Shown in pieces: positions 2,813 to 36,335 of a stretch of DNA of 36,335 nt. The DNA is taken from assembly GCA_029934085.1 (NCBI GenBank), contig JAOZMY010000003.1, forward strand, positions 1 through 36,335. The letters are read 5' to 3'. Both the position numbers and the translations under genes were made by a program. Numbering within the stretch: position 1 is the stretch's first letter; every line of letters starts with the position of its first letter. The notes under the pieces are model-generated. The model saw only the letters and a list, made by a program, of their open reading frames with translations. It made no database searches and had not been told where the DNA came from. The DNA comes from a bacterium (GTDB lineage: Bacteria > Desulfobacterota > S145-22).

Positions 2813-4300
2813 ATGTCTTCAGGGTCATTTTGGGTGCTCGTTCAGACGCCCGTCAAGCGTGAAGCCCAGGAGAATGCCTTCCACTTCGACAAGCGAGACA
2901 TGGCGTTAGGCCTATTTGGGGATGGGACGTTTGTCGATGGCGACGAGACGTTTCTGAGCCTTTTGGGGAAACCTTCCTATCCCGTGAAACTTGAAGAGGT
3001 CTTTAACCCCGAACATACGAAGATGCTGTTGCAGGTTTTTTCTGAACCTGCGTCGCCGGCCCTGTATTTCGAAGTGGAAAGGCGGGGTGAGAGGTACACG
3101 GTGTCTACCTTTCGGTCTACAACCGACAAGGATCGATATTTTTGGTTGGTGGTGGACAAAACGAGCCATCCGACGGGAAAACCAATCGTGGGATTCGAAC
3201 AACGCTATCGTCGCCTGTTCGAAAACCTCAAAGATGCCGTGTTTGCCAGTACCGTCGAGGGGAGATTTATCGATATCAATCCTGCCGGCGTGGAGATGCT
3301 GGGCTATAGCTCGAAGGAAGAGGTGTTGAAATTAAACATCCTGACGGATTTATACTACTATCCCGAGGATCGTTTGAAATACCAGGAAATCATCGCGAGG
3401 CAGGGGTATGTGAGGGATTATGAGGTTGTGTTCAAGAAGAAAGACAAGACCCCTCTCTTTGTCTCCATGTCGAATATCGCCGTTTATGATGAGGAGCGAA
3501 AGGTCCTGGGATATGAGGGAATCTTCCGAGACCTAACCCGTCAGAAGCAGATCGAGGAAGAGCTCAAGCGCAAGAATGCACAGTTGGAATCGTATGTGTA
3601 TACCGTCTCCCACGACTTAAAGTCCCCCGTCATTGCCATACAGGGCTTTTCCCGTCTTTTGATGAGACGCTATCGAGACGTGCTGGACAAGAAAGGCGTG
3701 GAACTTTTAGAACGGATTATGGGAATTTCTAAGCGAATAGAGAAGATGATTATGGATCTTCTTGCCTATTCAAAGGCAGAGAAAGATGCCGTGGGAGAGT
3801 TTGAATTTATCGATACGTATCAGGTCGTCCAGTCCATCATTGAGGAGTTGAAGTTGAAATGGGAGGGACATCCTGTTACATTTAATGTGAGTGAGGGGCT
3901 GCCGGAGATTCTTTTTCACCCCGGGAGCTTCAGGCAGATCATGTCGAACCTTATCGACAATGCCATCAAATATAGTCGGCAGTCGCCCTCATCGGTTGTG
4001 ACCATCGACTGTTGGATTGAGGACGGTTCTGTGGTATTTTCGGTAAAGGACAATGGCATCGGCATTGACCCAACCCTGCAAGATAAGATATTTGATGTCT
4101 TTGAAAGGGGAGAAGCTCCGGAGGAGATTGAAGGAACAGGAATCGGATTGAGCATCATCAAGCGGATTATTGAAACCCATCATGGGAAGATCTGGCTTGA
4201 TTCGGAGAAAGGTAAAGGGACAACCTTCTACGTGCGGTTGCCGGTTCGCACGTTGAAGAGGAAAGAGACCGCTTCCCACCGAGATGGTGCGCTTATGTGA
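2813..4300 (+). CDS. Cytoplasmic PAS-domain sensor histidine kinase
   Basis: PAS/PAC (YRRLFENLKDAVF...EGIFRDLT), H-box VSHDLKSP, N-box NLIDNAIKY, G1 VKDNGIGI, G2 GTGIGLSI. Confidence 0.93.
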   Translation: MSSGSFWVLVQTPVKREAQENAFHFDKRDMALGLFGDGTFVDGDETFLSLLGKPSYPVKLEEVFNPEHTKMLLQVFSEPASPALYFEVERRGERYTVSTFRSTTDKDRYFWLVVDKTSHPTGKPIVGFEQRYRRLFENLKDAVFASTVEGRFIDINPAGVEMLGYSSKEEVLKLNILTDLYYYPEDRLKYQEIIARQGYVRDYEVVFKKKDKTPLFVSMSNIAVYDEERKVLGYEGIFRDLTRQKQIEEELKRKNAQLESYVYTVSHDLKSPVIAIQGFSRLLMRRYRDVLDKKGVELLERIMGISKRIEKMIMDLLAYSKAEKDAVGEFEFIDTYQVVQSIIEELKLKWEGHPVTFNVSEGLPEILFHPGSFRQIMSNLIDNAIKYSRQSPSSVVTIDCWIEDGSVVFSVKDNGIGIDPTLQDKIFDVFERGEAPEEIEGTGIGLSIIKRIIETHHGKIWLDSEKGKGTTFYVRLPVRTLKRKETASHRDGALM

Positions 4301-4321: not shown

Positions 4322-6283
4322 GTGGAAAGTCGCATAAAAATTTTTAGGAACTACCTGCGGGCCCTGATCCAGGCGGTTTTTCCGTCTGAACCTTGGTTTA
4401 TTCTCCTCTTTTCTCAAATAGGCGTCAGAGAGACCCATAGGATTTTCCTGTCGTTTCCTTTTGAAGAGAACTTTTTGACCGACAAGATGACAACGTATCT
4501 CCTCCCGAAACTCCCTAAGGATATGTCAGCCCCCGTGTATCGTCGGGATCTCGTTCCTGATTTTTCTGTTTCCTCGGTCAACGTGAAATACGATATCACG
4601 GCGCCCATCTCCTACAATGGTCGCCAGATAGGCCTTTTCTGGGTGGGAACCTATGACTGGAACGGTTTCATGACGCTTCAGAGGAAGACGGTTATCCACC
4701 TTGCCGCACTTATCGGGTTTATGCTGGGGGTCTTTGCGCAGTCGGAGATGCAGGAACAGGATCTCATCGCATCAGAGATACGTTTCCGGGATTTGGTTCG
4801 CCATCTGGATGATGCCGTCTTTGTGGCGGAGAACGATCGCCTTGTCTATGTCAATCCCTCCTTGAGCGCGCTTTTTGCCTCCCCGGAGTCGGAAATCCTC
4901 GGGAAGTCCCTTCAGGAATGGATATATCCTGATGATGTGGAGGCTTTTAAACTCAGGTGGAAGCGTCTGCTGTATGGCGAGCCCTTTCCCCAGGACTATG
5001 AGATCAGGTTCAGGAACAAAGAGGGGGAAACTCGACAATGTCTCCTGACCCTTCGTAGGATGCCCTCTACGAAAGAGCCCGTTATCTTAGGGACCCTAAA
5101 GGACGTTACGGGGCTTAAGAATATCTGGAACGGTCTGTACGAGGCGAAGAAGAAGGAGGCCATTGGGACCCTGGCGGGAGGTATGGCCCACGATTTTAAC
5201 AATATCTTGGGAAGCATCCTTGGGTACGCCTCCCTGATCAAGCGTGAGGTCTCCACGGGCGAGAAACTCTATCACTATGCGGATGGTATCGAACAGTCTT
5301 CCAACCGGGCCGCCAAGCTGATTCAGCAGCTTTTGGGATTTTCCTTCAAAGGACGATACAAGGAAATCCCCTTTGTGTTACAGGGAACCCTCCAGGATCT
5401 AAAGGAAATCCTCGAAAACATGGTGGATCCGTCCATAGAGATTGTCCTTCAAATGGCGCGGGAGCCCCTGATGATCCTTGGGGATATGGATCAGGTTCAC
5501 CAATCGCTGTTGAATGTTTGTTTGAACGCCAAGGATGCCATGCCGGAAGGGGGTGTCCTCAAACTCGGCCTCTCAAAACGGTGGATCCCTGCGGCAAAGA
5601 CCTCTTTGAACCAGAAGCTGTTCCCTGGTGTCTATGCCCAGGTAACCATTGAAGACACGGGATGCGGCATGCATAAGGGGGTCTTGGAAAAGATATTCGA
5701 TCCCTTTTTTACGACCAAAGAGGTGGGCAACGGTGTCGGTCTGGGCCTGTCCATGACATATGGGATTGTCAAGAGTCACGGTGGATTCATTGAGGTGGAG
5801 AGCACTCCCGGGAAGGGGAGCCTTTTCAAGATTTGTTTCCCCCTTTACGAGGGGGCGTCCGAGTTACCTGAGGATCAGGACTTTGATCCCGCCTTTTTAG
5901 GGAAGGGGGAATGGATTCTTGTGGTGGATGACGATGAAGAGTTCCGAAATAGGTTGAGAGAGATCCTGGCGAGCCATGGGTATCATGTGCGTCTCGCAGA
6001 AAATGGGGAAGAGGCCGTCAGGCTCTATAGAGAGGCCTTTCCCTTTACCACCTTTCATCTCGTTCTCCTCGATATGTCCATGCCTGTCATGGGTGGGGAG
6101 GAGACCTTTTGGGAGCTCAAGCGAATTGACCCCGATGTGACGGTGGTCTTGATGACCGGGTTTGCCTTGGACGGGGATGTGCGAGACCTCCTTCAGTCAG
6201 GGGTCCCCGGTTATATCCAAAAACCCTTCAAGACAAGCAGCCTTCTGAGGGCGGTTCGGACGACGCTGGATCTAAACGGATAA
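4322..6283 (+). CDS. Hybrid sensor kinase (GAF-like/PAS-HisKA-HATPase-receiver; CckA-like)
   Basis: [13 protein letters not shown]-box, [21 protein letters not shown], and a C-terminal receiver (ILVVDDD...LLDMSMP...KPF). GTG start with GAGAGG upstream. Confidence 0.9.
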
Positions 6284-9518: not shown

Positions 9519-10205
9519 GTGATCCCGATTAGAGATGATAATCCGACTGAACTGACGCCTTACGTGACGATTACCCTGATCGCGTTGAATGTGATAGTCT
9601 TTATCTATCAACTTGCCCTTGGGCCTCAGGGAAACCAGGCGCTCGTTTTAAGGATGGGGATCATCCCGTATGAATTTACTCATGCCGTCGATATTCCCCC
9701 CTACGTGTCTCATCCGCTTATTTTCAATCTGTTCGCCGCCATGTTCATGCATGGAGGGATCTTTCACCTTTTGGGGAATATGCTCTATCTTTGGATCTTT
9801 GGGAACAACGTGGAAGATGCCATGGGGCACGTCCGTTTTATCATCTTTTATCTCCTCACGGGGGTCATGGCGAGCGCGGTCCATATCATCCTGATGCCCA
9901 ATACCACGGTGCCCATGATCGGGGCCAGCGGGGCTATTTCAGGGGTTCTCGGGGCCTATTTTGTTCTGTATCCCTGGGCGAGGGTCCATACCCTCATCTT
10001 CCTCTTCTTTTTCGTGACGGTTATCCAGGTCCCCGCGATGGTCATTTTGGGGTTCTGGTTTGTGTTTCAACTTCTCAGCGTGTTCAGCAAGAGCAACGTG
10101 GCCTGGTTTGCCCACATCGGCGGATTCTTGTCAGGGATGTTCCTCGTCCGCTTCTTCCTGAGAAAGAGGTTCCGTTTCCACGGTTCCGTCTTCAGGAAGG
10201 TGTGA
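9519..10205 (+). CDS. Rhomboid family intramembrane serine protease
   Basis: MIPIRDDNP N-terminus, HGGIFHLLGNM, catalytic GASGA and AHIGG; GTG start with AGGAGG SD. Confidence 0.93.
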   Translation: MIPIRDDNPTELTPYVTITLIALNVIVFIYQLALGPQGNQALVLRMGIIPYEFTHAVDIPPYVSHPLIFNLFAAMFMHGGIFHLLGNMLYLWIFGNNVEDAMGHVRFIIFYLLTGVMASAVHIILMPNTTVPMIGASGAISGVLGAYFVLYPWARVHTLIFLFFFVTVIQVPAMVILGFWFVFQLLSVFSKSNVAWFAHIGGFLSGMFLVRFFLRKRFRFHGSVFRKV

Positions 10206-11564
10206 GGCGGGGGATTCCTGACCCCATCGTTTTAGATCGTCCAATTTTTCCTTCGTGATTTCGGTTCCCCCGCAGGGAAGAAGAACATTGTTGTGGGTTA
10301 AAGGTTCTTCCGTTAACGGATAGGGCGAGATCCTGACGGCCTCTTCCCAGAGTGATGTTCCAGGGATGGGGGAGTATTCCGCGAGCGAGGGACGGACACC
10401 CCGCTCCAGGACGGCGGCCACACTGGCCTTCACCTCCTCGAAGGTCTGGCCAGGGAGGCCGACGAGGAGATAGACCTTGATGTCTTCATGCGTGAAACCT
10501 GCGTTGAAGAGGTGGGAGAGTGCGTGATCGAATTCTTTCAACGTGACCTTGGAACCCAGGCGGCGTTGCATTTCCGGGTGAATCGTCTCAAGGCTGAGCC
10601 GAAGGGTATGGAACCCGCTTGCCTTCATGAGTTCCGCGATTTCCCGGGTGATCAGGCGGACGTGGATACCGTTGGGGGTGTGGAACCGGAGGGAGAGCCC
10701 TTGATTCAAGAGGTTTTTAAGGAGGGGAATGAATCTCGTGGGAGCGTTGACCAACAGGGCGTCGTCGTAGAAGGCAAAATCTTGGACCCCAAACAAATGG
10801 TGTAACCTGGTGATGTCGTCTGCGAGTCGATCGATCGGTTGTTCAATAAACCGTGGATTGAGGAGGTTGGAGGCGCAGTAAGGGCAACGGAATGGACATC
10901 CGTGACTCGAGCGTATGCAAAGGAAATGCTGGGTGTTGTATCCCTCCCAATAAGGCAATCCTCGCATTTCGCTGGCCTGTGGGGTAGAAGCGATTGGGTT
11001 TCCTAAGAGATCGAAGACTTCCTTCAGATGTAAAGGTGTAAAAGGGCCTTCAATGACCCGGTCGGGCTGGCACACTGAACGGGCATGTCCTGGGAGGAGG
11101 GTGGCGTAGACCCCTCCAAGCCAGATAGGGGTGTCCGGGAAGTGTTCCCTTAAGTGTTCAATGACCGTTTTAACCCCTGGGTACCAGTAGGTCATGATAG
11201 AGGTAACAAAGATAAGATCAGGCTTGGGCAGGGTTTCAAGGTGTTGGCGCAGGTCTTCCGGGGAAATTCCGTAGCGGCAATACCTTCGGGGAACCGCGTC
11301 GAGGACCTTCGGTTTCTTAATCGGTGTTCGTCTGAGCTTTCCCGCACCGAAGGGGGATGTTTTGGGATGAAACGGTGTCAAGAGGGAAAAGTTTTCCGCA
11401 TCCACGCAGTCGACGAGAGAGACTCGGAATCCGGCATCTCTCAGCATCCCCCCGATCTCGAGGAGCCCCAGGGGGCGTGACCAGAGGTTGTAGGCGGCGA
11501 AATCGTAGATCCAAGGGTTGACGAGGAGGATATGCGGACGGTCGGATTGTTTCACGTGAAACAA
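10131..11564 (-). CDS. Cobalamin-binding-domain radical SAM protein
   Basis: N-terminal B12-binding-like region (ILLVNPWIYDF...PLGLL...GGVYATL), CxxxCxxC motif GCPFRCPYC, FYDDAL, PIPGT. Start is TTG 11564 or GTG 11555, both inside the extended parS palindrome. Confidence 0.88.
   Translation of the reverse strand: MFHVKQSDRPHILLVNPWIYDFAAYNLWSRPLGLLEIGGMLRDAGFRVSLVDCVDAENFSLLTPFHPKTSPFGAGKLRRTPIKKPKVLDAVPRRYCRYGISPEDLRQHLETLPKPDLIFVTSIMTYWYPGVKTVIEHLREHFPDTPIWLGGVYATLLPGHARSVCQPDRVIEGPFTPLHLKEVFDLLGNPIASTPQASEMRGLPYWEGYNTQHFLCIRSSHGCPFRCPYCASNLLNPRFIEQPIDRLADDITRLHHLFGVQDFAFYDDALLVNAPTRFIPLLKNLLNQGLSLRFHTPNGIHVRLITREIAELMKASGFHTLRLSLETIHPEMQRRLGSKVTLKEFDHALSHLFNAGFTHEDIKVYLLVGLPGQTFEEVKASVAAVLERGVRPSLAEYSPIPGTSLWEEAVRISPYPLTEEPLTHNNVLLPCGGTEITKEKLDDLKRWGQESPASHLPEDGTVETEPLSQEEADEEHP
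11548..11563. other. parS: parS centromere-like site (ParB binding)
   Basis: Exact TGTTTCACGTGAAACA, the canonical parS consensus; extends to a 20-bp perfect palindrome at 11546-11565. Confidence 0.92.
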
Positions 11565-31288: not shown

Positions 31289-31341
31289 TTGACAGCACGA
31301 TAATATGATGATAGGTATGATGTATTAAACATAATATGTTT
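31289..31341 (+). promoter_or_regulatory. TRAP-rdh operon promoter with palindromic operator
   Basis: TTGACA at 31289-31294. Overlapping palindromes ATGT-attaa-ACAT (31320-31332) and AAACATA-a-TATGTTT (31327-31341) lie just downstream. Confidence 0.5.
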
Positions 31342-31411
31342 GTGAGTCGGGAGAAAGTTTAGGAGAGAACGGCAACATTTTCATGGGGTATGTCCCAAAG
31401 GAGGGAGGAAG

Positions 31412-32434
31412 ATGAAGAAGCATTTTTACGCAGTATTGGTAGGAATTCTGGTCGCGGCTTTCTTTTTGGGTGCGACGAACCAGACATGCCGGGCGGAGAA
31501 GGTCATTGAGTTGAAGCTGGCCCATTTCATGTCCACGATGCATGTCCAGCATCGGAAGGCCTTCGTTCCCTTTGCGGAGAAGGTGGCGAAGTTGACGAAT
31601 GGCCGTGTCAAGATCAAGATCTATCCGGGAGGGACCTTGGGGAATCCCAAGACGATGGTGGACGCCATTCGAACGGGTATTACCGATATCGGTTTTGTCT
31701 TACCTGAATATGTTCCCGGTCGATTCAAGCGTAGTAGCGTCTTTGAGCTCCCCTTCATCTTTCACAGTGCCACCCACGTGACCAAGGTAACGTATGCTAT
31801 TTACAAGGATTACCTCGCCCCCGATTATAAAGACTTCAAGGTCCTCTGGTTCCTCTCGGCACCGTTGACCCAGTTGATGACGGTGAAGAAGCCGGTGAAA
31901 TCCCTCGCCGACATGAAGGGGCTTCGGATCCGTTCCGCCAGCGCTACGGAAACGGAGGGGTTGAAGCTCCTGGGAGCAAATCCCATCGGAATGCCTATTT
32001 CGGAGGTGTCTATTTCCCTTCAGAAGGGTGTGATCGAGGGGGTCTTCACCCCGTTTGCTGCCCTCAAGGCCCACAAGCTCATCGATATCGTGAAGTATAT
32101 GACGGAGTTTAATTACAACGGTGCCTTGATGTGCGTCTTGATGAACAAGAAGAAGTGGAACTCCCTTCCCGATTTTGCAAAGAAGGCCATCGACCAGGTG
32201 GCGAACAAGGACTTTGGAATCATGGCGGCCAAGGCCTTCGATGAGGAAGACGCGGAGAACGTGGCGGCGGGTAAGGCCAAAGGGATTAAGGTCTTTAAGC
32301 TTTCGGAGACGGACAAAGAGGTTATGCGCAAGAAGCTGAGCCATATCTGGGAGAAGTGGGTCAAGAAGAATGCTGGCCGATTCCCCGCCCAGAAGATTCT
32401 GGATGCCACCCTCGCCGCGGCCAAGGCAAATTAG
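31412..32434 (+). CDS. dctP: TRAP transporter substrate-binding protein
   Basis: GGAGG SD, signal peptide, TNGRVKIKIYPGGTLG, FELPF, DMKGLRIR (conserved carboxylate-binding Arg), SLQKGVIEG, MNKKKWNSLP. Confidence 0.93.
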   Translation: MKKHFYAVLVGILVAAFFLGATNQTCRAEKVIELKLAHFMSTMHVQHRKAFVPFAEKVAKLTNGRVKIKIYPGGTLGNPKTMVDAIRTGITDIGFVLPEYVPGRFKRSSVFELPFIFHSATHVTKVTYAIYKDYLAPDYKDFKVLWFLSAPLTQLMTVKKPVKSLADMKGLRIRSASATETEGLKLLGANPIGMPISEVSISLQKGVIEGVFTPFAALKAHKLIDIVKYMTEFNYNGALMCVLMNKKKWNSLPDFAKKAIDQVANKDFGIMAAKAFDEEDAENVAAGKAKGIKVFKLSETDKEVMRKKLSHIWEKWVKKNAGRFPAQKILDATLAAAKAN

Positions 32435-32449
32435 AGAACTATTTTGATC

Positions 32450-32482
32450 GGGGCTGATGTCTCCGCGGGAGGCACCAGCCCT
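32450..32482 (+). other. Intercistronic stem-loop between dctP and dctQ
   Basis: GGGGCTG-A-TGTCTCC-gcg-GGAGGCA-C-CAGCCCT with no U-tract. Confidence 0.55.
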
Positions 32483-32511
32483 CGGTTTGAATCTTTCCGG
32501 GAGACGAGAGT

Positions 32512-33018
32512 ATGAAAAAACTTGTCTCGAAGTTCGAGAAGGGCCTCTATTTTTTCACCCGGCAGGTGGATCGTATCTCTTGGGGGGTCTTATTCTTCCT
32601 GATGCTTATGACCGTGTGCCAGGTCTTTCTGAGAAAACTCACGAATCATGCCATTCTCGGAACGGTGGAGTTGACCGAGCTGGCGATGGCCTTTATCGTT
32701 TTCTGCTCGCTGGCCGAGTGCCAGGTCCATGAGGGACATATCAAGGTGGACCTCGTCCTGAGCCGATTCAGCCCCCGTGTTCAGTCCTTTTTCGATATCC
32801 TGACCCAGGGAGCCTCTTTCGTGATCTTCAGCCTCATGACCATCGCCTTGTTTCGTCAGGCCGAGGAACTGAAGAGCGCGGGAGAGGTAACGGTCGATTT
32901 GGCCATTCCCATGTATCCTTTTGTCTATGTGGCGGCCTTTGGATGCGTGCTCCTGGCCCTTGTTCTCTTGGCCAAGGCCCTTCGGGCCCTAATCAACTTC
33001 CTCGAGGTGCAACCGTGA
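32512..33018 (+). CDS. dctQ: TRAP transporter small permease
   Basis: 4 TM segments, QVFLR...GTVELTE...GHIKVD. Confidence 0.92.
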   Translation: MKKLVSKFEKGLYFFTRQVDRISWGVLFFLMLMTVCQVFLRKLTNHAILGTVELTELAMAFIVFCSLAECQVHEGHIKVDLVLSRFSPRVQSFFDILTQGASFVIFSLMTIALFRQAEELKSAGEVTVDLAIPMYPFVYVAAFGCVLLALVLLAKALRALINFLEVQP

Positions 33019-34319
33019 GTCCCGAGGTCATCGGTCTCTTAGGCCTGCTGGTTCTCTTTATCCTCCTGGCCATGCGGATGCAGATAGGGTTTGCCATGGC
33101 CCTGGTAGGATTTGTTGGATTCATCATTCTCAACAATTTCCAGGCGGCCATGGGGGTCCTGGGGCTTGAACCCTTCAAGATCACGGCGGATTATACTTTG
33201 AGTGTGATCCCCCTCTTTCTGCTCATGGGGGAATTTGCCAACGAGTCCCGCATGGGGGCCGAACTCTACGACATGCTGTATAAGTGGATCGGGTTTCTCC
33301 CCGGCGGGTTGGCCATGGCCACGGTGGGGGCGTGCGCTTTCTTTGCGGCGATTACGGGATCTTCACTCGCCACAGCGGCCATGTTCGGGATGATCGCCTA
33401 TCCGGAGATGAGAAATTTGAACTACGCGGAGACCCTCGCGACGGGGTGCATCGCCGCGGGAGGCACCTTGGGGATCTTGATTCCGCCAAGCTCCGTCCTG
33501 ATTATCTACGGTATCCTGACGGAACAGAGTATCGCGCGCCTCTTTATTGCCGGGATGCTGCCGGGTATCCTCCTCGCACTCATCTTCATGGGAACCATCT
33601 TCGTGATTACCAAACGCAGACCTGAACTGGGGGCCCCTGGTCCCAGGTTTACCATCAAAGAGAAGGTAACCTCCCTGAAGGCCACGTGGGGAATCATTCT
33701 CCTATTCATCCTGGTCATCGGCGGCCTCTATACCGGGTGGTTTACCCCTACGGAGGCCGCGGGTGTGGGGGCCTTTGGCGCCTTTGTCCTGGCCCTGCTG
33801 AAACGAAGTATGGGTTGGAAGACCCTGGTGGCTTCTCTGAAGGGAACCGTCCGCTCGACGGCCTTTATCTTTGGGATTCTTATCGGCGCCATGGTCTTTC
33901 AGTATTTCATGACCCTGAGTCAAATCCCGGAGAAACTGGCCTCATGGATCGTCATGATAGGGGTGGGCCGTTACGTGGTGGTTTCCGCCATCATCCTGGC
34001 CTTCATGGTAATGGGCTGTTTCATGGAGGGGCTGTCCATCATGTTTCTGGCGGTTCCCATCGTTTATCCCATCGTAATCCGGTTGGGTTTTGATCCCATC
34101 TGGTTTGGGGTCATCATTACCCTTACCATGGAAATGAGCCTGATCACCCCGCCCGTGGGGGTCAATGTTTTTGTCCTGCACGGAGTGGTGAAAGATGTTC
34201 CCATGTACACGATCTTTCGCGGCATCCTTCCCTTTTGGATCGCCATGATCATTTGCATCATTATTCTTATTGTCTTCCCGCAAATCGCGCTGTTCCTTCC
34301 AAACACGATGATGGGTTAG
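33015..34319 (+). CDS. dctM: TRAP transporter large permease
   Basis: GTG 33015 overlaps the dctQ stop; IPLFLLMG, GGTLGILIPPS, FTPTEAA, DPIWFGV, ITPPVGVN. Confidence 0.95.
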   Translation: MSPEVIGLLGLLVLFILLAMRMQIGFAMALVGFVGFIILNNFQAAMGVLGLEPFKITADYTLSVIPLFLLMGEFANESRMGAELYDMLYKWIGFLPGGLAMATVGACAFFAAITGSSLATAAMFGMIAYPEMRNLNYAETLATGCIAAGGTLGILIPPSSVLIIYGILTEQSIARLFIAGMLPGILLALIFMGTIFVITKRRPELGAPGPRFTIKEKVTSLKATWGIILLFILVIGGLYTGWFTPTEAAGVGAFGAFVLALLKRSMGWKTLVASLKGTVRSTAFIFGILIGAMVFQYFMTLSQIPEKLASWIVMIGVGRYVVVSAIILAFMVMGCFMEGLSIMFLAVPIVYPIVIRLGFDPIWFGVIITLTMEMSLITPPVGVNVFVLHGVVKDVPMYTIFRGILPFWIAMIICIIILIVFPQIALFLPNTMMG

Positions 34320-34328
34320 GAGTTTGAT

Positions 34329-35774
34329 ATGACGAGGATACTTCTTTTTCTGGACGCCCTGTTCTTCATCGGCGCCGTCTATTTCACCTTTGAATCGGTC
34401 AGGGAAAGGGAATACCAGGCCCCGAAGATAGGGGTGGGATTAAGTCTTTTCGCCCTCCTCTTGGCGGGGTTTATCCTGTGGGTGCCTCCTTTGAGACCAT
34501 TTATAGCAGTCTTTTTCGGTGTTGGGGTTGCGGCCTTGATCGTCTTTGCGGTGCCGACGCCGCCGGATCCCAGGATCTTGCAGGGCGCCCAAGGACATAT
34601 CGTTGAGGAGGCTATTCGCCACGATGAAAGGGATGTTTCCTTCGCCCGCGTGAGAGGCGTTCCCCCAGGAACCCCTTACTACAAGCGGTATTACAGCATG
34701 CATCCCGAAAGGGAGGAACCGGATGCTATCCGGCGGGAGAAGGGCCTTTTGGGGGAGCCCGGACGGGTAGATAAACGCTACCGTCCCAATGTGGCCATGA
34801 TGGAGGCCTCCTTTGATATGCCCAACTTTCTTGGGCTCTATGCGGAGGCAGCGCCGTCGCCTGAAAACCCACCTTATGAAGCCGATCCTAAAAAGGCCAC
34901 GGAGATCGTGAAAAATCTTGCTCTGACCCTTGGAGCGGACATGGTGGGGATTTGTAAGGTAAATCCCAACTGGGTCTATTCCCACCGCGGTGAAATCTTC
35001 TACGATCGGTGGGAGGATTGGGGGAAAGAGATCGATCCGGAGGAACTTCCCCCCTATGCCGTGGTCATGTTGACGGAGATGCGGGAGGATCACGTCTGTG
35101 CGGCACCTCACACCCCCACGGTGGCGGAGAGCGCCCGGAACTATGGCCGCGGGTCCTATCTGAGCACGGTGCTTGCCTGGTGGTTTGCCCATATGGGCTA
35201 TCGTGGCGTTGCCCAGAACTCCCGGCATTACGATATCGCCCTTCCGCCTCTGGCGGTGGACGCCGGCCTGGGGGAAGTTGGGCGGCTTGGGTATCTCATC
35301 GCCCCCAAGTTCGGGGCGCGGGTGCGAATCTTTGCCGTGTTGACCGACATGCCGCTCGTGCCGGACAAACCCATCTCCATCGGGGTAGACGAATTCTGTA
35401 AATGGTGTAAGAAGTGCGCGGAATCGTGTCCATCCAGATCTATCCTGATGGAGGACAAGGTGGTCTATAATGGGGCGTTGAAGTGGAAGCTGGACGCGGA
35501 CAGCTGTTTCGATTACTGGACTAAGGTGGGAACCGACTGCTCCATCTGTATGGCGGTCTGTCCCTACAGCCGTCCCAACACTCCTTTGCACCGCATCGTG
35601 CGGTGGTACGTGGCGCGATCCCGCCTGGCGCAGAAATACTTTCCGCTGGTAGATAATTTTCTTTATGGGAGAAAGTGGCGTCCAAAGCCGGTGCCTTCCT
35701 GGCTCGACTATCCCAAAGGGAAAGACGTGGTCAAGGAGGAGTATGGATTGGGCAGGGTAAACGATTTTGGATAA
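34329..35774 (+). CDS. Reductive dehalogenase-family (RdhA/QueG superfamily) corrinoid Fe-S protein with three N-terminal TM helices
   Basis: LGADMVGIC, WVYSH, LAVDAGLGEVGRLGYLIAPKFGARVR, LTDMPLVPDKP, and two Fe-S motifs FCKWCKKCAESCP and CFDYW...DCSICMAVCP. Hydrophobic N-terminal 75 aa, no RRxFLK, AGGAG SD. Confidence 0.85.
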   Translation: MTRILLFLDALFFIGAVYFTFESVREREYQAPKIGVGLSLFALLLAGFILWVPPLRPFIAVFFGVGVAALIVFAVPTPPDPRILQGAQGHIVEEAIRHDERDVSFARVRGVPPGTPYYKRYYSMHPEREEPDAIRREKGLLGEPGRVDKRYRPNVAMMEASFDMPNFLGLYAEAAPSPENPPYEADPKKATEIVKNLALTLGADMVGICKVNPNWVYSHRGEIFYDRWEDWGKEIDPEELPPYAVVMLTEMREDHVCAAPHTPTVAESARNYGRGSYLSTVLAWWFAHMGYRGVAQNSRHYDIALPPLAVDAGLGEVGRLGYLIAPKFGARVRIFAVLTDMPLVPDKPISIGVDEFCKWCKKCAESCPSRSILMEDKVVYNGALKWKLDADSCFDYWTKVGTDCSICMAVCPYSRPNTPLHRIVRWYVARSRLAQKYFPLVDNFLYGRKWRPKPVPSWLDYPKGKDVVKEEYGLGRVNDFG

Positions 35775-35800
35775 TGTGCGATTATGCGGTATAATGACCG
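35767..35800 (+). promoter_or_regulatory. Promoter of the GntR gene with overlapping palindromes
   Basis: TTGGAT-17 nt-TATAAT; ATAAT-gtgcg-ATTAT (35771-35785) and CGGT-ataatg-ACCG (35787-35800). Confidence 0.55.
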
Positions 35801-35824
35801 TTAGAAAGAAGGGAGAAAAAAACG

Positions 35825-36335
35825 ATGTCTTTCCAGCCATTGGAGAAAAAGAGGTATTCTGAGCAGGTCGCACACGAGATAGAATCAAAAATCCTTAATA
35901 ATGAGCTGAGGTTAGGGGAACGTCTCCTTTCAGAGGTTGACCTGGCAAAGGAATTTCGTGTCAGCCGGACCGTCATTCGAGAGGCCCTGCGCCTGCTGGA
36001 AGGGCGAGGCTTCGTCAAGATAAAACGGGGGCCCAAGGGGGGCATCTTCGCAAACGACGGTTTCCACAAACCCATGAGTGAGGCGCTTGGGCGCCTGGTT
36101 GATTCTGGGAAGGTTTCTGCAGAGGATATTTTTGAGATTCGCCTCCTTATCGAGCCCTATGTGGCGGCGGAGGCGGCCAGACGTGCCACAAAAGAGGACA
36201 TTGAAGAACTCCAAGCCCTCATCAATCTTTGCAAAGATCATATGGAGGACAGCGAGTATCTCCAGAGGGTTCGAGGGAAATTCCATGTCCAACTCGCCCA
36301 GGCCACGGGAAACCCCGTGTTGCTCATCATGATGA
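35825..36335 (+). CDS. GntR/FadR-family transcriptional regulator (wHTH + FCD), truncated by the window edge; not in the ORF track
   Basis: Hand translation MSFQPLEKKRYSEQVAHEIESKILNNELRLGERLLSEVDLAKEFRVSRTVIREALRLLEGRGFVKIKRGPKGGIF...EIRLLIEP...FHVQLAQATGNPVL; GGGAG SD. Confidence 0.93.
   Translation, partial: MSFQPLEKKRYSEQVAHEIESKILNNELRLGERLLSEVDLAKEFRVSRTVIREALRLLEGRGFVKIKRGPKGGIFANDGFHKPMSEALGRLVDSGKVSAEDIFEIRLLIEPYVAAEAARRATKEDIEELQALINLCKDHMEDSEYLQRVRGKFHVQLAQATGNPVLLIMM

What the first reader, a model, noticed from the sequence alone, without database searches (positions are those of the whole stretch)
31289..36335. TRAP importer + membrane-anchored reductive dehalogenase + FadR/GntR regulator: candidate 'import-then-dehalogenate' system
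Seen: dctP-dctQ-dctM-rdhA-like are tightly packed on one strand. dctQ and dctM overlap, and the dctM stop TAG is part of the rdh SD (TAGGAG, 9 nt gap). A GntR/FadR gene follows. Known: respiratory RdhAs are Tat-exported, anchored by RdhB, and need no importer. TRAP DctPs with the conserved Arg (here GLRIR) bind organic anions, and a TRAP system (FcbT1-3) accompanies hydrolytic 4-chlorobenzoate dehalogenation in Comamonas. Inference: this is a reductive, anaerobic counterpart that imports a halogenated carboxylate (e.g. halo-hydroxybenzoate or a marine bromo/iodo-organic acid), dehalogenates it at the inner membrane face, and is controlled by a carboxylate-sensing FCD regulator. I know of no characterised operon with this composition.
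Basis: partly seen in the sequence, partly recalled or inferred. Interest (0 to 1): 0.85.

Follow-up and report, generated by a model that had tools for sequence, protein, structure and literature searches.

The report
Acid importer coupled to membrane-anchored dehalogenase
A sediment bacterium keeps an organic-acid uptake system, a self-anchored vitamin-B12 "reductive dehalogenase" and a sensor-regulator in one conserved gene block, which gives the first practical handle on what this abundant but never-tested enzyme class acts on.

Summary
In detail: dctP, dctQ, dctM, an RdhA-family gene and a GntR/FCD gene lie packed on the + strand (31412-36335 and beyond). The RdhA belongs to the already published "hybrid/transmembrane RdhA" class: three N-terminal helices, an EXE loop, no Tat signal and no rdhB. 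The enzyme type is therefore not new. What I found in no paper searched is the linkage. An orthologous TRAP system lies directly upstream of rdhA in 33 of 160 fetched loci, and all of them fall in one RdhA subclade (26 of 39 evaluable non-redundant rows). No TRAP was found beside 31 evaluable distant TM-RdhAs. All three congeners I fetched have the same arrangement. RdhA, DctM and DctP distances co-vary. Charge bias and the missing Tat signal put the catalytic domain in the cytoplasm. The nearest solved relatives of DctP bind aromatic acids. The genome also encodes the Had and Oah steps of the benzoyl-CoA pathway. [quoted passage not shown] is therefore the best reading (about 0.5). No halogenated substrate, activity, co-transcription or electron donor has been shown. 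BhbA of Comamonas, with a transporter binding-protein gene next to it, is a precedent. Verdict: a new variant of a known kind, of moderate to high interest.

The parts
   Evidence: (9 of 12 matches each; consensus scan only)
31327..31341 (.). perfect palindrome AAACAT-AAT-ATGTTT between the promoter-like hexamers and dctP; a candidate GntR operator, not conserved in other loci
   Evidence: L015 and L021 share a different motif (GTCAGAC core), so the operator assignment is unproven
31412..32434 (+). dctP, periplasmic TRAP solute-binding protein (340 aa) with an invariant Arg174
32512..33018 (+). dctQ, small TRAP membrane subunit (168 aa)
   Evidence: PF04290, 1.4e-26
33015..34319 (+). dctM, large TRAP permease (434 aa from GTG 33015; GTGA overlap with the dctQ stop)
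   Evidence: orthologues are 433-435 aa
34329..35774 (+). rdhA of the hybrid/TM class. Model helices are 2-25, 31-51 and 53-73. The EXE motif is E26/E28. The catalytic domain carries Y272, R333 and W397, and the Fe-S motifs are C357-C360-C363-C367-P368 and C404-C407-C411-P412.
35768..35795 (+). promoter-like site (TGGATA-16-TATAAT, 10 of 12) at the rdhA stop, in front of gntR
   Evidence: consensus match only
35825..36335 (+). gntR (FadR-type wHTH + FCD), first 170 codons; the gene continues beyond the window across a scaffold gap

Best explanation
This is a five-gene unit, dctP-dctQ-dctM-rdhA-gntR.

Proposed mechanism. DctP captures an aromatic carboxylate in the periplasm, and DctQM imports it. 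The RdhA-family enzyme is held in the membrane by its own fused RdhB-like three-helix anchor, with its cobamide/2x[4Fe-4S] catalytic domain on the cytoplasmic side. It reduces the imported acid there, most probably by removing a halogen. The GntR/FCD protein senses the acid or its product and controls the unit. In this organism the dehalogenated product most likely enters CoA-dependent anaerobic aromatic degradation (benzoyl-CoA pathway), so the role is catabolic or detoxifying and need not be respiratory.

What is shown: gene order, family membership, conservation and co-variation of the TRAP-rdhA linkage, lack of a Tat signal, and charge bias.

What is inferred: cytoplasmic orientation, an aromatic-acid ligand, a halogenated substrate, one shared substrate for the transporter and the enzyme, regulation by GntR, and the fate of the product. 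The electron donor is unknown.
For: Linkage.
- 33 of 160 fetched TM-RdhA loci have an orthologous dctM (68-90% identical) directly upstream on the same strand. 28 of the 160 have too little upstream DNA to judge.
- In the tree of 85 non-redundant rows, all 26 such rows lie in one 43-row clade (SH-aLRT 81, inside a 46-row clade at 96). That is 26 of 39 evaluable rows there.
- The estimated dctM-rdhA gap is 44 nt or less in 26 of 33 loci.
- All 3 congeners fetched have dctPQM directly upstream of rdhA.
- In neighbour clustering over the 80 genome loci, DctP, DctM and DctQ are the only families recurring in 7 or more loci, apart from an ABC ATPase.

Specificity of the linkage.
- The window genome's other TRAP paralogues are at most 45% (DctM) and 37% (DctP) identical.
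- Of the next-nearest TRAPs in the same phylum (DctM 50-55%), 0 of 5 evaluable have an RdhA behind them.
- Three loci from two distinct contigs have a different TRAP subfamily upstream (DctM about 46%), and two have a TRAP downstream. This suggests the association arose independently more than once.

Co-variation. Spearman correlation of pairwise identities is 0.74 for RdhA-DctM and 0.70 for RdhA-DctP, as high as DctM-DctP (0.70). None of 999 Mantel permutations reached these values; 17 loci were used.

Regulator. gntR follows rdhA on the same strand in 14 of 30 evaluable TRAP-linked loci and in 0 of 78 evaluable unlinked ones.

Topology. Across 37 homologues the mean K+R count is 0.16 in the N-tail, 3.5 in loop 1-2, 0.86 in loop 2-3 and 7.2 in the 35 residues after helix 3. 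A Tat motif occurs in 0 of 37.

Enzyme. It passes the TIGR02486 cut-off. Catalytic Tyr and Arg align with PceA Y246 and R305. The AF2 model (pLDDT 88.5) matches NpRdhA and PceA at E about 1e-21 to 1e-20.

Ligand class. The DctP model (pLDDT 92.8) is closest to 4n6d. Next come entries titled 'TRAP solute binding protein specific for aromatic acid ligands' and TarP with coumarate, cinnamate, ferulate, caffeate or 4-hydroxyphenylacetate.

Metabolic context. Had (476 bits, cut-off 339) and Oah/BamA (566 bits, cut-off 464) are adjacent on contig C72, and CobS is present.

Precedent. A TTT binding-protein gene lies directly upstream of bhbA on pBHB.
Against: - 13 of 39 evaluable members of the same subclade have no TRAP upstream, and their neighbours are heterogeneous.
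- 0 of 31 evaluable distant TM-RdhAs have one. The coupling is therefore a subclade trait, not a property of the class.
- No member of the TM-RdhA class has ever been shown to dehalogenate (PMC6797604, PMC10624902: passages read).
- The operon holds no CoA ligase, no redox partner and no halide exporter.
- At the two positions where NpRdhA binds the phenolic hydroxyl (K488, R552) this protein has R333 and W397, as in PceA. An ortho-halophenolic acid is therefore not specifically indicated.
- Published topology predictions for the class are mixed between cytoplasmic and exoplasmic (PMC6797604, Table 1), and PMC12219181 calls the class 'respiratory'.
- DctP is only 24-33% identical to the solved aromatic-acid binders.
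- Co-variation can arise from shared descent alone.
Confidence: 0.5

Rival explanations
1. The architecture is the same but the role is respiratory, analogous to NarGHI with NarK. The imported halo-aromatic acid is a terminal electron acceptor. The fused RdhB-like anchor with its EXE glutamates oxidises a membrane quinol and passes electrons to the inward-facing cobamide site, and the dehalogenated acid is excreted.
For: The EXE pair is kept in 36 of 37 homologues. The N-terminal 90 residues give a weak match to PceB of the PceA2B2 complex that includes an identical EREYQA stretch (E 0.22, not significant alone). PMC10624902 (passages read) proposes that the fused forms are structurally related to PceA2B2, where PceA and PceB form the menaquinol site. 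PMC12219181 names the class 'transmembrane respiratory'. UbiE/MenG (238 bits, over cut-off) and one UbiA-family prenyltransferase are present. No redox partner gene lies in the operon.
Against: MqnA/D (PF02621) and MenA (TIGR00751) were not found in this 94%-complete genome, so quinone synthesis is unsettled. Quinol oxidation at the cytoplasmic face would release its protons inside. The genome encodes Had and Oah for using the de-halogenated ring. No hydrogenase, formate dehydrogenase or RdhC-type gene lies in the unit.
Confidence: 0.2
2. The enzyme is a cobamide/Fe-S reductase of the RdhA family that acts on an imported aromatic acid without a halogen (another reductive elimination or reduction). 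'Dehalogenase' would then be a family name only.
For: The class is biochemically untested (PMC6797604, PMC10624902). The superfamily includes a non-dehalogenating enzyme, QueG. The nearest solved DctP relatives bind ordinary lignin-type aromatic acids. The genome holds many aryl-CoA-ligase-like genes and six HcrA-like molybdenum enzyme genes, consistent with general aromatic-acid degradation.
Against: The protein passes the curated RDH cut-off and fails QueG's. It keeps the Tyr/Arg pair used for dehalogenation by PceA. Its fold is as close to two proven dehalogenases as they rank to each other in the search.
Confidence: 0.15
3. The adjacency has no shared substrate. The TRAP system imports an unrelated nutrient, and rdhA merely rides in the same cassette or shares a regulator.
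For: A third of the subclade lacks the TRAP. gntR is missing from 16 of 30 evaluable linked loci. Flanking genes differ between loci.
Against: The linkage is kept down to 53-56% RdhA identity, with gaps of 10-44 nt in 26 of 33 loci. Only this TRAP subfamily is linked. Other TRAP subfamilies were recruited next to other TM-RdhAs (L048/L149, L043, L169). Other notes of this scan report TRAP genes beside other non-exported RdhAs (unchecked leads).
Confidence: 0.1

Closest known systems
Hybrid / N-terminal-transmembrane RdhA class (Atashgahi 2019, PMC6797604; called 'transmembrane respiratory RdhA' in PMC12219181)
   Same: About 480 aa, three N-terminal helices, an EXE loop, no Tat signal, no rdhB and two Fe-S motifs. 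The strain NaphS2 protein listed in that paper is 51% identical and falls in the sister clade.
   Different: Those papers do not mention transporters in their main text. 'TRAP' and 'transporter' occur 0 times in PMC6797604, and 'transporter' occurs 0 times in PMC12219181. Here a subclade is tied to a dedicated TRAP system. Table S11 of PMC12219181 could not be seen because supplements are closed.
PceA2B2 menaquinol:organohalide oxidoreductase (PDB 8Q4H, PMC10624902)
   Same: The catalytic fold matches (Foldseek E 3e-20). The Tyr/Arg/Trp active-site positions are PceA-like. There is an anchor with EXE glutamates, and a weak PceB match includes EREYQA.
   Different: PceA is Tat-exported and faces the periplasm with a separate PceB. 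Here the anchor is fused, there is no Tat signal, the enzyme is predicted to face the cytoplasm, and an importer is attached.
Catabolic RdhAs BhbA (Comamonas sp. 7D-2, pBHB) and NpRdhA (4RAS, 6ZXU-6ZY1)
   Same: They are not exported and act on a halogenated hydroxybenzoate inside the cell. bhbA has a periplasmic binding-protein gene of a tripartite transporter directly upstream. Sequence similarity to this protein is equal to PceA's.
   Different: BhbA and NpRdhA are soluble, about 700-1070 aa, oxygen-tolerant, and have a duplicated cobalamin domain and often a fused NAD(P)H reductase (PMC10463259, passages read). The binding protein there is of the TTT family, not TRAP. That this gene is the published BhbB and is needed in vivo is recalled from Chen et al. 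2013, which is not held.
TarPQM-type aromatic-acid TRAP transporters and the 'marine metagenome' aromatic-acid binding proteins (7NR2, 7NTD, 7NQG; 5I5P, 5I7I, 5IGA, 5IZZ)
   Same: They have the DctP fold (TM-score about 0.8) and rank directly after 4N6D. The conserved Arg is aligned.
   Different: Identity is only 24-30%. None is reported next to an RdhA. The ligand of this DctP is unknown.
FcbT1T2T3 TRAP system with hydrolytic 4-chlorobenzoate dehalogenation
   Same: It pairs TRAP import of a halo-aromatic acid with intracellular dehalogenation.
   Different: It uses hydrolytic, CoA-dependent chemistry in an aerobe and has no cobamide enzyme.

Membership tests
Reductive dehalogenase catalytic subunit, RdhA (TIGR02486 / PF13486) | Profile score above the curated cut-off | tested here: met
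   TIGR02486 scores 187.5 bits against a cut-off of 160.35. PF13486 scores only 20.9 against 24.3.
Reductive dehalogenase catalytic subunit, RdhA (TIGR02486 / PF13486) | Two Fe-S motifs, CxxCxxCxxxCP and CxxCxxxCP | tested here: met
   C357/C360/C363/C367-P368 and C404/C407/C411-P412 are invariant in 37 sequences.
Reductive dehalogenase catalytic subunit, RdhA (TIGR02486 / PF13486) | Catalytic Tyr with a partner Arg/Lys | tested here: met
   Y272 aligns with PceA Y246 and NpRdhA Y426. R333 aligns with PceA R305 and NpRdhA K488. Both are invariant.
Reductive dehalogenase catalytic subunit, RdhA (TIGR02486 / PF13486) | Bound cobamide and halide-releasing activity | not testable with these tools
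   Only fold likeness to NpRdhA and PceA is available.
Hybrid / TM-RdhA class (Atashgahi 2019) | No Tat signal; N-terminal transmembrane helices in its place | tested here: met
   A Tat motif occurs in 0 of 37. Hydropathy peaks and model helices are at 2-25, 31-51 and 53-73.
Hybrid / TM-RdhA class (Atashgahi 2019) | EXE motif in the loop after helix 1 | tested here: met
   E26 and E28 are present in 36 of 37.
Hybrid / TM-RdhA class (Atashgahi 2019) | No adjacent rdhB | tested here: met
   The neighbours are dctM and gntR.
Respiratory RdhA/RdhB (PceAB type) | Tat-exported RdhA with a separate RdhB anchor | tested here: not met
Catabolic cytosolic RdhA (NpRdhA/BhbA) | [quoted passage not shown] | tested here: not met
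   The protein is 481 aa with a membrane anchor. Only one strong domain matches NpRdhA, and R333 and W397 occupy those positions.
Epoxyqueuosine reductase QueG | TIGR00276 above cut-off | tested here: not met
   37.2 bits against 200. PDB E 2.6e-8 against 1.7e-45 for RdhAs.
TRAP transporter (DctPQM) | All three components present, with the conserved Arg in the binding protein | tested here: met
   PF03480, PF04290 and PF06808 match. R174 is invariant and aligns to Arg in 4n6d and 5i5p. That this Arg binds the carboxylate is family knowledge (SiaP R147), not tested here.
GntR family, FadR subfamily | N-terminal wHTH plus an all-helical FCD domain | tested here: met
   PF00392 and PF07729 match. 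The FCD is cut by the window end and scaffold gap; the full domain (1-121 of 125) is seen in the congener orthologue.

The most novel reading that the evidence does not exclude
This subclade of self-anchored RdhAs is an inverted respiratory dehalogenase. A PceAB-like quinol:organohalide oxidoreductase has been turned to face the cytoplasm and is fed its acceptor by a dedicated TRAP importer, in the way NarK feeds NarGHI. Natural brominated or iodinated aromatic acids of marine sediments would then be respired from the inside. If so, part of the most abundant RdhA type in sediments acts on imported organic-acid organohalides and not on the hydrophobic pollutants used in standard assays.
Probability: 0.2. 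Interest if true: 0.8.

Novelty: new variant of a known kind. Interest (0 to 1): 0.58.

Why it matters
TM-RdhAs are reported as the most numerous RdhA type in marine cold-seep sediments (1963 of 3993 sequences; PMC12219181, passage read). Yet their substrates, orientation and role were posed as open questions in 2019 (PMC6797604), and their activity was still described as unassessed in 2023 (PMC10624902). A conserved, co-varying importer gives three things. It is an independent argument that the active site faces the cytoplasm. It narrows the substrate search to (aromatic) carboxylates. It also offers an easy experimental entry: DctP is a small soluble periplasmic protein that can be screened for ligands before anyone tackles the oxygen-sensitive membrane enzyme.

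Tried and rejected
- Expression: no RNA holder was listed for the stretch, so co-transcription could not be examined. Read laying was not used, because DNA contigs would only show presence.
- Operator: the palindrome at 31327-31341 is not conserved upstream of dctP in L015 and L021, which share another motif. The repeat finder found nothing at its settings. No operator is claimed.
- Clade-specific residues: ten positions separate TRAP-linked from unlinked RdhAs (for example H255, S350, T418).
- Quinone status: inconclusive.
- Literature:
  - The search 'BhbA/BhbB' returned beta-hydroxybutyrate papers.
  - The PDB-code search returned noise.
  - 'dehalogenase' + 'DctP' returned mostly dCTP papers.
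  - The TRAP mentions in PMC4959651 and PMC9888536 are unrelated to RdhA.
  - The 'hybrid' mentions in PMC12908670 and PMC12090745 refer to hybrid assemblies.
  - Chen et al. 2013 is not held.
- Other catabolic RdhA plasmid loci (Ruegeria, Nitratireductor, Jannaschia) show no TRAP next to the gene in the incomplete PLSDB tables.
- 18 of the 120 best DctP homologues share an exact 'longest contig' length with one of the 120 best RdhA homologues. I did not verify that these are the same contigs, so this is a hint only.

Full report
**What is in the sequence.**
- Five genes lie head to tail on the + strand: dctP 31412-32434, dctQ 32512-33018, dctM, an RdhA-family gene 34329-35774, and a GntR/FCD regulator gene from 35825.
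- The ORF finder starts dctM at ATG 32943. The Pfam match begins at residue 35 of that ORF, orthologues are 433-435 aa, and a GTG at 33015 overlaps the dctQ stop as GTGA. I therefore place dctM at 33015-34319.
- The window ends inside gntR. The contig (55,582 bp) has a 100-N scaffold gap directly after base 36335, flanked by a 55-nt duplicated overlap. The 220-aa ORF I first listed is therefore an artefact. The orthologue in a congener is 231 aa with a complete FCD domain.
- Upstream, on the other strand, lie a PUA/SAM methyltransferase and a GH3 hydrolase. Downstream lie yqeY, mutS2, dnaG and rpoD. The rest of the window holds yidC, mnmE, topA and dprA. The unit therefore sits in a housekeeping region, not in an obvious island.

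**What the enzyme is.**
- The 481-aa protein passes the curated RDH model (187.5 bits, cut-off 160.35) and fails QueG's (37 bits, cut-off 200).
- Against solved structures it is equally close to the catabolic NpRdhA (E 1.7e-45) and the respiratory PceA (1.8e-45), and far from QueG (2.6e-8).
- An AlphaFold model built on 37 homologues (pLDDT 88.5, pTM 0.88) gives the same ranking by fold.
- From the printed alignments, Y272, R333 and W397 correspond to PceA Y246, R305 and W376. NpRdhA has Y426, K488 and R552 at those positions.
- Both Fe-S motifs are invariant.
- The N-terminus has three hydrophobic helices. None of 37 homologues has a Tat motif, and 36 of 37 have the E-x-E pair in the first loop.
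- These features define the "hybrid" RdhAs described from genomes in 2019 (PMC6797604, passages and Table 1 read) and called "transmembrane respiratory" in a 2025 cold-seep survey (PMC12219181, passages read). The strain NaphS2 protein listed in the 2019 paper is 51% identical to this one.
- The enzyme type is therefore known. It is also untested: both PMC6797604 and the PceA2B2 structure paper (PMC10624902) say its activity and role remain to be assessed.

**Is the TRAP linkage conserved?**
- I fetched 80 loci from species-representative genomes and 80 from metagenome contigs that encode relatives of the RdhA. I searched them with the window's DctP, DctQ, DctM and GntR.
- The 160 loci sort as follows:

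| Category | Loci |
|---|---|
| Orthologous dctM (68-90% identical) directly upstream on the same strand | 33 |
| Different TRAP subfamily upstream (DctM about 46%; two of these are the same contig) | 3 |
| TRAP downstream | 2 |
| No TRAP upstream | 94 |
| Under 400 bp upstream, cannot be judged | 28 |

- I built a tree of 85 rows. Before the tree I dropped 13 rows: five TRAP-linked, two unlinked and six unjudgeable. They had a stop in my merged match range or were under 380 aa. I also removed 10 near-duplicates, and rows under 48% identity were left out except for three outgroup rows.
- In that tree, all 26 TRAP-linked rows fall in one clade of 43 (SH-aLRT 81, nested in a 46-row clade at 96). 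Thirteen rows in that clade lack the TRAP and four cannot be judged. The sister group of 32 rows, which includes NaphS2, has none of the orthologous TRAPs.
- Among 38 more distant loci (Bacteroidota, Chloroflexota, Zixibacteria and others by record title), 0 of 31 evaluable have a TRAP.
- In the window's own family, 5 of 8 other genomes hold an orthologue of at least 75% identity. I fetched three of these and all three have dctPQM directly upstream.
- Clustering of all neighbours in the 80 genome loci found DctP (10 loci), DctM (9) and DctQ (7) as the top recurrent families. The next were an ABC ATPase (7), a molybdopterin oxidoreductase (6) and the GntR (4).

**Is it this transporter in particular?**
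- The genome has about ten TRAP systems. The others are at most 45% (DctM) or 37% (DctP) identical to this one.
- In a sample of 401 genomes of the same phylum, DctM above 55% identity occurs only in the window's family, in 6 genomes including its own. In all 6 it is next to the rdhA.
- I fetched nine of the next-best TRAPs (50-55%). Five have enough downstream DNA, and none has an RdhA.
- Pairwise identities of RdhA track those of DctM (rho 0.74) and DctP (0.70) as closely as the two transporter parts track each other (0.70). None of 999 permutations reached these values; 17 loci were used. Shared descent alone can produce this, so it shows co-inheritance as a unit, not function.
- The estimated dctM-rdhA gap is 10-44 nt in 26 of 33 loci and 101-235 nt in seven.
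- The regulator gene follows rdhA in 14 of 30 evaluable linked loci and in 0 of 78 evaluable unlinked ones. PMC12219181 already noted GntR-family neighbours for this class.

**Which side of the membrane?**
- Across 37 homologues, lysine plus arginine average 0.16 in the N-terminal tail and 0.86 in the second loop. They average 3.5 in the EXE loop and 7.2 in the first 35 residues after helix 3.
- By the positive-inside rule the N-terminus is outside, and the EXE loop and catalytic domain are inside.
- A domain that must receive a cobamide and two Fe-S clusters and has no Tat signal would also be expected to stay in the cytoplasm (established knowledge of Tat export; inference here).
- This remains a prediction. 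Table 1 of PMC6797604 lists both orientations among close relatives.
- A charged carboxylate cannot reach an inward-facing site without a carrier. The conserved importer is therefore an independent argument for the inward orientation.
- The EXE loop and the catalytic domain lie on the same side, as PceB's glutamates and PceA do. The N-terminal 90 residues give a weak match to PceB that includes an identical EREYQA stretch (E 0.22, not significant alone).

**What might be imported?**
- DctP has a signal-peptide-like N-terminus and an invariant Arg174 that aligns to an Arg in its closest solved relatives.
- Its model (pLDDT 92.8) is closest to 4N6D, a Desulfovibrio salexigens protein. Next come four entries titled [quoted passage not shown]. 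After those come TarP proteins solved with coumarate, cinnamate, ferulate, caffeate or 4-hydroxyphenylacetate. Identity is only 24-33%, so this indicates a ligand class, not a ligand.
- The genome encodes adjacent Had and Oah/BamA genes, both above their equivalog cut-offs, next to a glutaryl-CoA-dehydrogenase-like gene. It also has about ten aryl-CoA-ligase-like genes, six HcrA-like molybdenum enzyme genes (none over the equivalog cut-offs) and CobS.
- No dsrA was found.
- This fits an anaerobic degrader of aromatic acids, which makes a catabolic fate for the product plausible.
- Quinone synthesis is unsettled. MqnA/D and MenA were not found, but UbiE/MenG and one UbiA-family gene are present. 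The genome is 94% complete.

**Comparison with what is known.**
- The closest family is the hybrid/TM-RdhA class, of which this protein is a member.
- The closest working analogy is BhbA of Comamonas sp. 7D-2. On plasmid pBHB the gene directly upstream of bhbA is annotated as a tripartite tricarboxylate transporter binding protein. I recall, but could not read, that the original paper showed this neighbour to be needed for dehalogenation in vivo.
- Importing and then dehalogenating is therefore not without precedent. It has been seen for soluble, oxygen-tolerant catabolic RdhAs, not for the membrane-anchored anaerobic class.
- I found no paper linking TRAP genes to RdhAs. Three searches gave nothing relevant: "reductive dehalogenase" + "TRAP transporter" (3 papers), + "tripartite ATP-independent" (6 papers), and "dehalogenase" + "DctP" (45 papers, 15 listed) (passages checked). 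The two class papers do not mention transporters in their main text. Table S11 of PMC12219181, which lists neighbours, could not be opened.
- Earlier notes of this scan had filed other TM-RdhAs as ordinary members of the known class. They had also seen TRAP genes beside other non-exported RdhAs in other genomes. I treated these as leads only.

**Verdict.** The linkage is real, specific and conserved in a subclade, and an inward-facing enzyme fed by an aromatic-acid importer is the best reading. Halogenation of the substrate, enzyme activity, co-transcription, the electron donor, and the choice between a catabolic and a respiratory role remain open.

Noticed in passing
contig beyond the window: G000:C57 36336-36435 (L009 5337-5436): A 100-N scaffold gap starts one base after the window end and is flanked by a 55-nt direct duplication. 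This looks like an unresolved overlap of two contig ends. It splits gntR and creates a false 220-aa ORF.
   Followed up: yes
G000:C164 8664-9887 (-) and G000:C100 2922-4112 (-): The same genome holds two further RdhA-family genes (407 and 396 aa, both over the TIGR02486 cut-off). They have no hydrophobic N-terminus and no TRAP neighbour. Their neighbours include a low-molecular-weight phosphatase, a serpin and a ketopantoate-reductase-like gene.
   Followed up: partly
L016, L038, L051 (Desulfofustis-type loci), about 1.8-4.9 kb and 9.4-10.1 kb: In this sub-branch an ABC transporter (Peripla_BP_4 binding protein, permease, ATPase) lies directly upstream of dctPQM-rdhA. A nitroreductase-family gene lies convergent just downstream, and there is no gntR.
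   Followed up: partly
L051 8001-9406; L130 659-2063: The rdhA match is split into two frames in these two TRAP-linked loci. This may be a frameshift, a pseudogene or an assembly error.
   Followed up: no
L094 3-392 and L096 409-2200: A second, different TRAP system (DctM 47-51% identical) lies immediately upstream of the orthologous dctPQM-rdhA.
   Followed up: no
L156 8560-9666; L169 4069-4887; L170 2366-3208: Additional RdhA-like genes (28-33% identical) lie within 2 kb of the TM-rdhA. In L169 and L170 a GntR gene lies between them.
   Followed up: no
L035 / L124, 2.9-7.9 kb: In one unlinked branch of the same subclade, the rdhA follows three paralogous Nuo/Mrp antiporter-like membrane subunit genes (PF00361).
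   Followed up: partly
window 31327-31341: A perfect 6-3-6 palindrome, AAACATAATATGTTT, lies between the promoter-like hexamers and dctP. L015 and L021 carry a shared GTCAGAC-centred motif at the equivalent place instead.
   Followed up: partly
window 10131-11564 (-): A B12-binding radical SAM protein gene lies next to mnmE and yidC.
   Followed up: no
window 2813-4300 and 4322-6283 (+): Two adjacent PAS-domain histidine kinase genes are present; the second is a hybrid with a receiver domain.
   Followed up: no
G000:C72 5663-10050: A glutaryl-CoA-dehydrogenase-like gene, an SDR gene, Had (TIGR03201) and Oah/BamA (TIGR03200) lie in a row, forming a lower benzoyl-CoA pathway cluster. A hybrid-cluster protein gene lies at 17-1681.
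   Followed up: partly
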